Source: Escherichia coli (GTDB taxonomy: Bacteria; Pseudomonadota; Gammaproteobacteria; Enterobacterales; Enterobacteriaceae). From it: a DNA stretch of 411 nt. The notes under the pieces were generated by a model that saw only the letters and a list, made by a program, of their open reading frames with translations, searched no databases and had not been told where the DNA came from. Below, in pieces: positions 1 through 331 of the stretch (its first letter is position 1; every line of letters starts with the position of its first letter). The translations under genes and the position numbers were made by a program. Where the stretch lies: assembly GCF_003334335.1 (NCBI RefSeq), contig NZ_QOWQ01000194.1, one strand, 5' to 3'.

Positions 1-21
1 ATTGTGAAGTTAGTCACAAAA
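1..21. promoter_or_regulatory. Candidate CRP (cAMP receptor protein) binding site; core TGTGA-N6-TCACA at 3-18
   Basis: Seen in sequence: TGTGA at 3-7, 6-bp spacer agttag at 8-13, TCACA at 14-18. Both half-sites match the established CRP consensus with the canonical 6-bp spacing; the right flank is A-rich rather than T-rich. The left flank of the full 22-bp site runs off the window start. The target promoter and its orientation cannot be determined. Confidence 0.5.
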
Positions 22-42
22 AGAAGAAAGTCAAATAATCAA

Positions 43-72
43 ATTGTGCTTAACTGTTTACATCAGCACAAT
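43..72. repeat. Perfect 8-bp inverted repeat ATTGTGCT / AGCACAAT with 14-bp spacer
   Basis: Seen in sequence: 43-50 attgtgct and 65-72 agcacaat are exact reverse complements; spacer 51-64 is taactgtttacatc. No T-tract follows on either strand, so it is unlikely to be a terminator. It could be a protein-binding operator or an RNA hairpin. Confidence 0.6.
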
Positions 73-78
73 CTGATG
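61..78. repeat. Perfect 6-bp inverted repeat CATCAG / CTGATG with 6-bp spacer, overlapping the right arm of the 43-72 inverted repeat
   Basis: Seen in sequence: 61-66 catcag and 73-78 ctgatg are exact reverse complements; spacer 67-72 is cacaat. It shares bases 65-72 with the previous inverted repeat, so the two structures or sites are mutually exclusive. Confidence 0.55.
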
Positions 79-98
79 ACCATTGAATGACCATTGAA
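77..98. repeat. Perfect tandem direct repeat, 2 x 11 bp (tgaccattgaa tgaccattgaa)
   Basis: Seen in sequence: 77-87 and 88-98 are identical 11-mers in head-to-tail arrangement. An 11-bp period is about one helical turn, which places the two copies on the same DNA face; this is the arrangement used by direct-repeat-binding regulators such as OmpR/PhoB-family response regulators. No specific regulator is identified. Confidence 0.7.
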
Positions 99-133
99 GG
101 ACGCACTAAATTATTTTCAGCAATCCCTCAGCC

Positions 134-256
134 TACGAAAATTCTGCATCCCCTGAATGTTTAATTTACACTCTTTTTATGCAATTATTCTTTCGACTAT
201 AAAAACACCACTATCTCATGTATGACCTTGGGGAGCGTGCCGTCTCCCCGTTTTTT
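134..256 (+). ncRNA. Candidate small RNA, copy A (5' end not determined; 3' end at the intrinsic terminator)
   Basis: Inference: a non-coding region ending in a strong intrinsic terminator, with a duplicated paralogous unit downstream and a 13-nt block (134-146) perfectly conserved between copies. No convincing sigma70 -35/-10 pair was found; TATAAA at 198-203 and TAAATT at 107-112 are weak candidates, so the start coordinate is a placeholder. I could not match the sequence to any sRNA I can recall (Spot42, CyaR, McaS, OmrA/B, RyhB, RprA, MicF and others were compared from memory). Confidence 0.3.
230..256 (+). terminator. Rho-independent (intrinsic) terminator: 6-bp GC-rich stem, 8-nt loop, 6-T tract
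   Basis: Seen in sequence: GGGGAG 230-235 pairs with CTCCCC 244-249 (five G:C pairs and one A:T); loop cgtgccgt 236-243; g250 then tttttt 251-256. The - strand has no T-tract after the hairpin (it is followed by aaggtcat), so the terminator is oriented for + strand transcription. Confidence 0.6.
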
Positions 257-304: not shown

Positions 305-331
305 ATGCAATACGAAAATTCTGTATTGCAT
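305..331. repeat. Perfect 9-bp-arm palindrome ATGCAATAC-N9-GTATTGCAT, present in unit B only
   Basis: Seen in sequence: 305-313 atgcaatac and 323-331 gtattgcat are exact reverse complements; spacer 314-322 is gaaaattct. It overlaps the unit-B copy of the conserved 13-mer (311-323). The equivalent left arm in unit A (cagcctac, 129-136) does not pair with gcatcc. It could be a dimeric-regulator operator or a 5' stem-loop of RNA B. Confidence 0.6.

What the first reader, a model, noticed from the sequence alone, without database searches (positions are those of the whole stretch)
43..78. Two overlapping, mutually exclusive perfect inverted repeats
The 8-bp-arm inverted repeat (43-50 / 65-72) and the 6-bp-arm inverted repeat (61-66 / 73-78) share bases 65-72. 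If transcribed, only one hairpin can form at a time, which is a switch-like arrangement. If they are DNA sites, they are overlapping operators. The outer half-sites TGTGC...GCACA resemble CRP half-sites but with a 16-bp spacing, so this is not a CRP site.
Basis: seen in the sequence. Interest (0 to 1): 0.35.

Follow-up and report, generated by a model that had tools for sequence, protein, structure and literature searches.

The report
Stem-loop upstream of prophage eib gene
The two inverted repeats are real, but they behave as one dominant 13-bp stem-loop in the non-coding spacer about 300 bases upstream of a prophage adhesin gene (eib) in E. coli, most likely a weak transcription stop or insulator rather than a switch, so the feature is ordinary.

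Summary
Both inverted repeats exist at the stated coordinates. The 8-bp repeat extends to 13-bp arms (38-50 / 65-77). Its one mismatch is A:C on the + strand and becomes G:U in minus-strand RNA. A 12-of-13 repeat occurs in about 1% of shuffled windows. The 6-bp repeat is compatible with chance (18% of shuffles) and has an equilibrium probability of at most 1e-4 on either strand, so a balanced switch is not supported.

The window is the spacer between a tail-fibre-assembly gene and an eib gene (Ig-binding YadA-like adhesin) in Eib prophages. It occurs in 27 of 5426 complete E. coli genomes. Both flanking genes lie on the minus strand. The stem-loop sits about 290-330 nt upstream of the eib ATG and next to a perfect CRP core site (3-18). 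It is beyond the 168 bp used for plasmid complementation.

Positions 35-75 are invariant in 61 copies, so there is no covariation to test. Five other eib-type upstream allele classes lack this stem.

On the minus (eib-sense) strand the stem is -16 kcal/mol and is followed by a U-rich tail. The best reading is a weak intrinsic terminator or insulator (confidence about 0.4). Rivals are a non-selected quasi-palindrome and a protein operator. Interest is low.

The parts
65..77 (-). 5' arm of the dominant stem-loop as read on the minus (eib-sense) strand: AUCAGAUUGUGCU
   Evidence: It pairs with 50-38 as 13 contiguous pairs, including one G:U, in minus-strand RNA.
51..64 (-). 14-nt loop of the dominant stem-loop. 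It contains the core AAACAGTTAA, which is shared with another eib-type allele class.
   Evidence: It is invariant in 61 copies.
38..50 (-). 3' arm of the dominant stem-loop (minus strand: AGCACAAUUUGAU)
15..37 (-). U-rich tract 3' of the stem on the minus strand (UAUUUGACUUUCUUCUUUUUGUG)
   Evidence: The tail score is -3.55, within the range of the three canonical terminators of the spacer (-2.9 to -3.9) and reached by only 6% of minus-strand positions in the spacer. The + strand tail scores -1.62.
61..66 (.). 5' arm (+ strand) of the minor 6-bp hairpin, CATCAG
   Evidence: It is compatible with chance and thermodynamically negligible.
73..78 (.). 3' arm (+ strand) of the minor 6-bp hairpin, CTGATG. 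Position 78 is A in 13 of 61 copies.
3..18 (.). Neighbouring CRP-like site TGTGAAGTTAGTCACA. It is context for the stem, not part of it.
   Evidence: for the sequence. Searches show a CRP-like site kept in six diverged allele classes, 113-116 nt from a conserved TAxxxT hexamer.

Best explanation
Positions 38-77 are one dominant stem-loop rather than a two-state element. The element lies in the roughly 800-nt non-coding spacer between the tail-fibre-assembly gene and the eib adhesin gene of Eib prophages. Both genes are on the window's minus strand. The hairpin lies 477 nt past the tfa stop codon and 292-331 nt before the eib ATG. Any transcript coming from the tail-fibre genes carries the minus-strand version. 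That version is a 13-bp stem of about -16 kcal/mol followed by a U-rich tract. I infer that it acts as a weak factor-independent terminator or pause site. It would stop RNA polymerase that is not antiterminated before it runs into the CRP-like site and the eib promoter region. In a lysogen, eib would then be driven by its own control region, while Q-modified late transcription would read through. What is shown: the location, the strand asymmetry, the energies and the invariance. What is inferred: that this strand is transcribed, and that termination occurs.
For: In phage PhiR5_2 the eib cassette sits inside the block of same-strand tail genes, so eib-sense transcription across the spacer is expected during lytic growth. 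Minus-strand RNA folds to -16.5 kcal/mol (z -4.7, 0 of 200 shuffles as good). Plus-strand RNA folds to -11.4 kcal/mol (z -3.2). Both imperfect positions (42:73, and G78A for the small stem) are G:U on the minus strand and A:C on the plus strand. The minus-strand tail scores -3.55, like the three canonical terminators of the same spacer, whereas the plus-strand tail scores -1.62. The consensus scan finds no minus-strand terminator between tfa and eib; its five terminator-like hits, which mark three convincing terminators, all point the other way, so this is the only terminator-like element in the eib sense. The 12/13 repeat arises in 1% of shuffles. Positions 35-75 show 0 variable columns in 47 distinct sequences, against 2.5-4.6 expected from the flanks.
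Against: The loop is 14 nt, whereas typical terminators have 3-8 nt, and the tool's own terminator scan does not call it. The base of the stem is A:U/G:U-rich, and only 4 of the first 8 tail bases are U. Five other eib-type upstream allele classes have no comparable eib-sense hairpin plus tail at this position, so the element is not a conserved requirement of eib control. eibG with only 168 bp of upstream sequence complements a deletion from a plasmid (bioRxiv 10.64898/2025.12.25.695649). No transcript data were available. The loop is as invariant as the arms, which a purely structural element does not require.
Confidence: 0.4

Rival explanations
1. It is a non-selected quasi-palindrome. The repeat would have been produced by mutation, for example template switching that makes an imperfect repeat more perfect. 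It would look conserved only because the eib cassette spread recently among prophages. Any hairpin it forms would have no consequence.
For: The closest other allele class (L024) shares the core GCTGAnnTAAACAGTTAA and the outer ATCA...TGAT. It lacks matching 4-5-nt blocks on both arms that make up the GC core of the stem here. Symmetric gain of that kind is what template-switch mutation produces. All copies are at least 98% identical over -255..+145, so zero variable sites in 41 nt is only P of about 0.01-0.08. The stem is absent from the five other allele classes. The spacer to the right of position 146 is a plastic mosaic with duplications and deletions. It is not needed for plasmid complementation.
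Against: The repeat lies inside the block that stays conserved (-255..+145), while the spacer beyond 146 is scrambled. Invariance is somewhat greater than in the flanks. The wobble pairs and the U-rich tail both favour the transcribed strand.
Confidence: 0.3
2. It is a DNA operator. The 13-bp arms, with centres 27 bp apart, would bind a dimeric or tetrameric regulator. Candidates are IbrA/IbrB, the RcsB-like ORF-156 encoded just downstream of eib, or a CRP-family protein. The regulator would control eib or a divergent + strand promoter (TAGTCA-17-AATAAT, 11-39) whose start would fall in the left arm.
For: The loop is as invariant as the arms, which suits sequence-specific recognition. The element is adjacent to a conserved CRP-like site. 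The arms carry TTGTG/CACAA, like the CRP half-sites. Every convincing intrinsic terminator in the spacer is + strand oriented, which hints at + strand transcription starting near here. ORF-156 folds like RcsB/EvgA/FixJ regulators. The ibrA and ibrB genes are on the same phage. The stem_loop annotated upstream of eibA has the same 27-bp centre-to-centre spacing (11-bp arms plus 16 nt).
Against: The arm motif is not enriched elsewhere in the complete phage (11 hits versus 12.9 expected at one mismatch). The + strand promoter match is at chance level (1 found, 1.1 expected). The element is not conserved in the other allele classes, although the CRP-like site and the RcsAB-box-like motif are. The same arms with any 14-nt loop occur only at chance level in 100,044 species genomes, and the one Enterobacteriaceae hit is not conserved as a repeat in E. 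coli. The 16-bp half-site spacing excludes CRP itself.
Confidence: 0.2
3. It is an RNA switch or attenuator. In an eib-sense leader the small hairpin (78-73: 66-61) would act as antiterminator and the large hairpin as terminator. A factor would stabilise the small one.
For: The topology is right. On the minus strand the small hairpin is transcribed first, it shares 77-73 and 66-65 with the terminator's 5' arm, and it holds 72-67 in its loop. G78A keeps a G:U pair on that strand.
Against: The small hairpin is 10 kcal/mol weaker on the minus strand and has an equilibrium probability of about 0. It is expected by chance in 18% of shuffles. No convincing promoter was found at 79-145 in the eib sense. 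There is no Rfam match, no covariation and no known factor.
Confidence: 0.05

Closest known systems
Rho-independent (intrinsic) terminators that bound 'moron' transcription units in lambdoid prophages
   Same: A stable RNA stem (-16 kcal/mol) is followed by a U-rich tract on the strand of the surrounding genes. It sits between the phage tail-fibre module and an accessory (moron) gene that has its own control region.
   Different: The loop is 14 nt, the base of the stem is A:U-rich, and the U-tract is interrupted. It lies upstream of the moron's promoter rather than downstream of the moron. It is not detected by the consensus terminator scan and is not conserved in the other eib-type alleles.
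The stem_loop annotated upstream of eibA in GenBank AF151091 (3777-3814), here called IR2
   Same: It lies in the same upstream region of the same gene family. It is a long-spacer inverted repeat (11-bp arms with a 16-nt spacer, against 13-bp arms with a 14-nt spacer here), so both have arm centres 27 bp apart. Its substitutions fall mainly in the loop (3 of 4 variable columns).
   Different: IR2 lies about 110-150 nt before the ATG. That is at or just after the conserved -10-like hexamer and overlapping an RcsAB-box-like motif, so it is probably in the 5' UTR or promoter. The present stem is about 180 nt further upstream and was not annotated by the depositors. The arm sequences are unrelated apart from AAATT.
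Terminator/antiterminator leaders such as the bgl RAT-terminator or trp-type attenuators
   Same: There are two mutually exclusive hairpins. The upstream one shares a strand with the 5' arm of a U-tailed stem.
   Different: The alternative hairpin is far weaker, and no leader promoter, leader peptide, binding protein or ligand is evident. There is no conservation or covariation, and the arrangement is expected by chance in about 1 in 5 cases.
CRP binding sites (TGTGA-N6-TCACA)
   Same: The arms contain TGTGC and GCACA, each a 4-of-5 match to a CRP half-site.
   Different: The spacing is 16 bp rather than 6 bp, so this is not a CRP site. A true consensus core lies 27 bp to the left, at 3-18.

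Membership tests
Intrinsic (Rho-independent) terminator | Stable stem of about 5-14 bp, usually G+C-rich, on the transcribed strand | tested here: met
   The minus-strand stem has 13 bp (5 G:C, 1 G:U) and folds at -16.1 to -16.5 kcal/mol, z -4.7. The three canonical terminators in the same spacer are -10 to -11 kcal/mol. Caveat: the five pairs at the base are A:U or G:U apart from one C:G.
Intrinsic (Rho-independent) terminator | Short loop (typically 3-8 nt) | tested here: not met
   The loop is 14 nt, which is outside the 3-8 range of the scan. The scan does not report the element.
Intrinsic (Rho-independent) terminator | U-tract immediately 3' of the stem | tested here: inconclusive
   The tail is UAUUUGACUUUCUUC, with 4 U in the first 8 bases. 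A decay-weighted tail score, implemented from memory of TransTermHP, gives -3.55. That is within the range of T1-T3 (-2.9 to -3.9) and in the top 6% of spacer positions. The scan's rule of at least 5 U in 8 is not met.
Intrinsic (Rho-independent) terminator | Transcripts end there | not testable with these tools
   No RNA-seq, Term-seq or RACE data were available, and the papers found contain no transcript mapping of eib loci.
RNA switch / attenuator with alternative hairpins | Two alternative structures of comparable stability, or a known factor that shifts the balance | tested here: not met
   The energy difference is 5.4 kcal/mol on the + strand and 9.7 kcal/mol on the - strand. The probability of the small hairpin is at most 1e-4. 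No factor is known.
RNA switch / attenuator with alternative hairpins | Conservation and covariation of both structures in relatives | tested here: inconclusive
   Positions 35-75 are invariant in 61 copies, so there is nothing to covary. G78A weakens the small stem. Both structures are absent from the five other allele classes.
RNA switch / attenuator with alternative hairpins | Match to a described RNA family | tested here: not met
   A search of Rfam 15 with an E-value cut-off of 10 found only chance-level snoRNA-type hits and nothing over 38-78 of relevance.
CRP binding site | TGTGA and TCACA pentamers separated by 6 bp | tested here: not met
   TGTGC is at 45-49 and GCACA at 66-70, separated by 16 bp. 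The feature is met instead by 3-18.
Palindromic operator of a phage or cassette regulator | The same half-site recurs at other controlled promoters of the element | tested here: not met
   In PhiR5_2 (61.5 kb), AATTGTGCT with up to 1 mismatch gives 11 hits against 12.9 expected. The only arm-length matches are the two arms themselves plus one 2-mismatch hit.
Palindromic operator of a phage or cassette regulator | Protein binding | not testable with these tools
   This needs a gel shift or footprint with CRP-cAMP, IbrAB or ORF-156.

The most novel reading that the evidence does not exclude
The stem-loop is the cis element through which a dedicated factor controls eib or a divergent unannotated + strand transcript. 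The factor could be IbrA/IbrB (ParB-like plus PAPS-reductase-like co-activators whose target site has never been defined) or the cassette's own RcsB-like ORF-156. It could act by binding the DNA palindrome next to the CRP-like site. It could instead stabilise the small hairpin so that polymerase reads through the large U-tailed stem.
Probability: 0.08. Interest if true: 0.5.

Novelty: new member of a known kind. Interest (0 to 1): 0.17.

Why it matters
As it stands it matters little. This is one more hairpin in a prophage intergenic spacer, restricted to 27 of 5426 complete E. coli genomes. The wider context is of modest interest. Eib proteins are immunoglobulin-binding, serum-resistance and chain-adhesion factors of LEE-negative STEC. 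I found no promoter or transcript mapping of eib loci in the papers I could reach. Comparison of six diverged upstream alleles shows several shared elements: a CRP-like site at fixed spacing, a -10-like hexamer, an RcsAB-box-like motif, 5'-UTR helices with compensatory changes, and an RcsB-like gene downstream. These give concrete, testable handles on eib regulation. The stem-loop examined here is not one of those shared elements.

Tried and rejected
(1) Known RNA family. Rfam with a permissive threshold gave only chance hits.

(2) Coding potential. The + and - strand ORFs across the spacer are inconsistent between alleles. Their frames are broken by the 11-bp duplication and by indels, they have no Shine-Dalgarno sequence, and they have no PHROG hit.

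(3) Covariation in close copies. I collected 61 copies from E. coli genomes, IMG/VR and 40 metagenome contigs, using a pattern that left 35-90 free. Positions 35-75 are invariant, so no test is possible.

(4) Distant homologues through the neighbouring ORF-156 gene. This gave five further eib-type upstream allele classes. They share the proximal region and the CRP-like site but not this stem. A terminator-like scan of the equivalent position in each was negative, so 'structure conserved without sequence' is not supported.

(5) Same arms with any 14-nt loop in 100,044 species genomes. There were 37 scattered hits in unrelated phyla, which is chance level. The one Enterobacteriaceae hit (Pluralibacter, upstream of dppA) is not kept as a repeat in E. 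coli dppA.

(6) Arm motif as a recurrent operator within a complete Eib phage. It is not enriched.

(7) A + strand small RNA running from about 46 to the terminator at 229-256. The promoter match is at chance level, the terminator is degenerate in the second haplotype, and 146-400 is a recombining mosaic. I consider it unlikely, though not excluded.

(8) Literature. The Sandt and Hill papers and Lu et al. 2006 are not in the library. The papers that are held give no promoter mapping. The only relevant detail is that 168 bp upstream of eibG was used for complementation.

Full report
**The observation**

The window contains ATTGTGCT (43-50) facing AGCACAAT (65-72), and CATCAG (61-66) facing CTGATG (73-78), exactly as reported. 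The repeat finder shows that the first repeat is longer than reported. Its arms are 38-50 (ATCAAATTGTGCT) and 65-77 (AGCACAATCTGAT), 12 of 13 positions complementary, with a 14-nt spacer.

The single mismatch (42:73) is A:C on the + strand and U:G on the minus strand. Minus-strand RNA therefore forms 13 contiguous pairs (-16.5 kcal/mol, z -4.7, 0 of 200 shuffles as stable). Plus-strand RNA gives -11.4 kcal/mol (z -3.2).

The two perfect repeats share only bases 65-66. Bases 67-72 are the loop of the small hairpin, and 73-77 are shared once the large stem is extended.

**Chance and energetics**

- A 12/13 repeat with a 3-30 nt loop occurs in 1% of 400 dinucleotide shuffles of the window. A perfect repeat of 8 bp or more occurs in 18%.
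- When the 8-bp arms are held fixed and the rest of 30-90 is shuffled, another perfect repeat of at least 6 bp that overlaps an arm appears in 18% of trials. The 'overlapping pair' is therefore not remarkable.
- The small hairpin is -6.0 (+) and -6.4 (-) kcal/mol, against -11.4 and -16.1 for the large one. Its equilibrium probability is at most 1e-4 on either strand.
- On the + strand the large stem is complete before the 3' arm of the small one is made. Only on the minus strand could the small hairpin form first, and then only transiently. Nothing indicates a balanced switch.

**Where the window lies**

The window matches 27 of 5426 complete E. coli genomes, with 1-5 copies each and always on the chromosome. 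It also matches eight phage records, including P-EibA and the PhiR5/PhiR12 phages.

In every locus examined it is the spacer between a tail-fibre-assembly gene (DUF4376) and a YadA-C-terminal-domain gene, that is, an eib immunoglobulin-binding adhesin. Both genes are on the window's minus strand. The eib ATG is 255 nt to the left of window position 1, and the tfa stop is 142 nt to the right of the window end. The stem-loop is therefore 292-331 nt upstream of eib and 477 nt downstream of tfa.

In phage PhiR5_2 the cassette is embedded among same-strand tail genes, and ibrA and ibrB lie on the same phage. Late transcription is therefore expected to cross the element in the eib sense. This is an inference, since no transcript data were available.

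**Conservation in close copies**

I gathered 61 copies from genomes, IMG/VR contigs and 40 metagenome contigs. The metagenome contigs were fetched with a pattern that fixed only 13-34 and 91-106. All 61 have identical sequence at 36-77. In the 47 distinct extended sequences no column in 35-75 varies. The only nearby polymorphisms are G78A (13 copies) and an 11-bp tandem duplication at 76-86 (19 copies).

Among the 47 distinct extended sequences, 28 of about 255 columns vary to the left of the window and 6 of 40 vary at 107-146. None of the 41 columns at 35-75 varies. Between 2.5 and 4.6 variable columns would be expected, giving P of roughly 0.01-0.08. This is mild evidence of constraint. It applies to the loop as much as to the arms, and it leaves nothing to covary.

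The block from the eib ATG to about window 145 is nearly invariant. To the right of 146 the spacer is a mosaic of two haplotypes and of a duplicated module of about 170 nt, with recombinant and deleted forms.

**Conservation in distant relatives**

Using the conserved gene downstream of eib (ORF-156) as a handle, I recovered five further classes of eib-type upstream regions. All six classes share these elements:

- a CRP-like site (a perfect TGTGA-N6-TCACA core here at 3-18, with weaker variants elsewhere), at a constant 113-116 nt from a conserved TAxxxT hexamer (TATAGT here, 150 nt before the ATG);
- a motif resembling the RcsAB box (TAAGnnnnnTCCnA; the published consensus is TaAGaatatTCcta, PMC4325325);
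- 5'-UTR helices with compensatory changes, one of which pairs with the eib Shine-Dalgarno sequence.

The stem-loop examined here is not among these shared elements. One class (L024) is homologous around the loop core GCTGAnnTAAACAGTTAA and the outer ATCA...TGAT. It lacks matching 4-5-nt blocks on both arms that form the GC core here, and it carries a different long-spacer repeat. A terminator-like scan of the equivalent position found a strong eib-sense hairpin plus U-tail only in the window's class.

A preprint reports that eibG with only 168 bp of upstream DNA complements a deletion from a plasmid. The stem is therefore not needed for expression in that setting.

**Most likely function**

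On the eib-sense strand the stem is followed by UAUUUGACUUUCUUCUUUUUG. A decay-weighted tail score, which I implemented from memory of TransTermHP, is -3.55. That is comparable with the three canonical terminators in the same spacer (-2.9 to -3.9) and is reached by only 6% of spacer positions. The + strand tail scores -1.62.

Every terminator-like site that the consensus scan finds between tfa and eib is + strand oriented (5 found against 0.9 expected). The stem is therefore the only terminator-like element in the direction of the flanking genes.

My best reading, at a confidence of about 0.4, is a weak intrinsic terminator or pause hairpin. It would insulate the eib control region from read-through that is not antiterminated, while being ignored by Q-modified late transcription.

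The evidence against this reading:

- the loop is 14 nt;
- the base of the stem is A:U-rich;
- the U-tract is interrupted;
- the consensus scan does not call it;
- it is absent from the other allele classes.

**Rival explanations**

*A non-selected quasi-palindrome (0.3).* This is consistent with the symmetric indels relative to the L024 class, the recent spread of the cassette, and the plasticity of the spacer.

*A DNA operator next to the CRP-like site (0.2).*
- Evidence for: the loop is invariant. ORF-156 folds like RcsB, EvgA and FixJ (pLDDT 80; Foldseek probability up to 0.92 but E-values of 0.01 or higher; weak GerE/LuxR HMM hits). The ibrA and ibrB genes are on the same phage.
- Evidence against: the arm motif is not enriched elsewhere in the phage (11 hits versus 12.9 expected). 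The same arms with any loop occur only at chance level across 100,044 species genomes. The single Enterobacteriaceae hit, upstream of Pluralibacter dppA, is not kept as a repeat in E. coli.

*An RNA switch (0.05).* The topology allows it, but the energetics, the chance expectation and the lack of a leader promoter or Rfam match do not support it.

**Comparison with what is known, and verdict**

The element works most like a moron-flanking intrinsic terminator, but it fails the short-loop criterion, and its U-tract is borderline. It is not a CRP site, because the half-site spacing is 16 bp rather than 6 bp. It is not a member of any Rfam family.

GenBank AF151091 annotates a different stem_loop nearer to eibA, here called IR2. 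IR2 has 11-bp arms and a 16-nt spacer, and it is not the stem examined here.

The finding is a real but ordinary hairpin of uncertain importance. The 'two-state' aspect is probably coincidental.

Noticed in passing
window 3-18 (extends to L001 7999-8020): TGTGAAGTTAGTCACA is a perfect CRP core consensus (TGTGA-N6-TCACA). A CRP-like site is kept in six diverged eib-type upstream allele classes. It lies a constant 113-116 nt from a conserved TAxxxT hexamer and about 260-276 nt before the ATG, an unusual distance for CRP activation.
   Followed up: partly
L001 7896-7878 (window coordinates about -104 to -122): A conserved -10-like hexamer (TATAGT, TACAGT, TACACT or TAATGT) lies 147-160 nt before the eib ATG. 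It is followed directly by TAAGGAAATTCCGA, which resembles the RcsAB box consensus TaAGaatatTCcta. TAAG...TCC is kept in all six allele classes.
   Followed up: partly
L001 6069-6542 (minus strand), the gene just downstream of eib (ORF-156): It has no Pfam or NCBIfam hit. The AlphaFold model (pLDDT 80) matches the NarL/FixJ-type regulators RcsB, EvgA, StyR and FixJ, and the C-terminus gives weak GerE/LuxR HTH hits. It is probably a receiver-like plus LuxR-HTH regulator encoded within the eib cassette. Homologues at 62% identity or less also follow tail-fibre genes where no eib is present.
   Followed up: partly
L001 7747-7850 (5' UTR of eib): A consensus fold of eight alleles pairs GGAATAyCC with the eib Shine-Dalgarno region AGGrTAT, with a compensatory C:G to U:A change. 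A hairpin CAUCAG...CyGAUG also shows compensatory changes. A 25-codon upstream ORF with a good Shine-Dalgarno sequence is present in some alleles only.
   Followed up: partly
window 229-256, 397-411 (continues to L001 8430), and L001 8529-8555: There are three canonical intrinsic terminators, all oriented for the + strand, although both flanking genes are on the minus strand (the scan reported 5 hits against 0.9 expected). The one at 229-256 is degenerate in the second haplotype. The source of the + strand transcription they would stop is unknown.
   Followed up: partly
window 115-256 versus 284-411+: A module of about 170 nt is duplicated in tandem (repeats D1, D3, D5 and D7). P-EibA and some other copies have lost one module through recombination between the copies. 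Positions 146-230 exist as two haplotypes that recombine.
   Followed up: partly
window 76-97: ATGACCATTGA is duplicated in perfect tandem. The duplication is present in 19 of 61 copies and absent from the rest.
   Followed up: yes
window 305-313 / 323-331: ATGCAATAC-N9-GTATTGCAT is a 9-bp perfect inverted repeat and the longest perfect one in the window. The equivalent place in the first module lacks it.
   Followed up: no
L001 7850-7887 (window -150 to -113): GAAATTCCGAA-N16-TTCGGAATTTC is annotated as stem_loop in AF151091. Its substitutions fall mainly in the loop (3 of 4 variable columns). Its arm centres are 27 bp apart, the same spacing as in the stem studied here.
   Followed up: partly
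L168 25883-27696 (PV340546 57883-59696): Phage PhiR5_2 carries ibrB and ibrA, the co-activators of eib expression, on the same genome as the eib cassette. The cassette sits inside the tail-gene block.
   Followed up: no
L095 1036-1067: A Pluralibacter MAG has AAATTGTGCT-N14-AGCACAAT about 300 nt upstream of dppA, with a third AATTGTGCT 50 nt away. The E. coli dppA region keeps only an imperfect version. I judge this a coincidence.
   Followed up: yes
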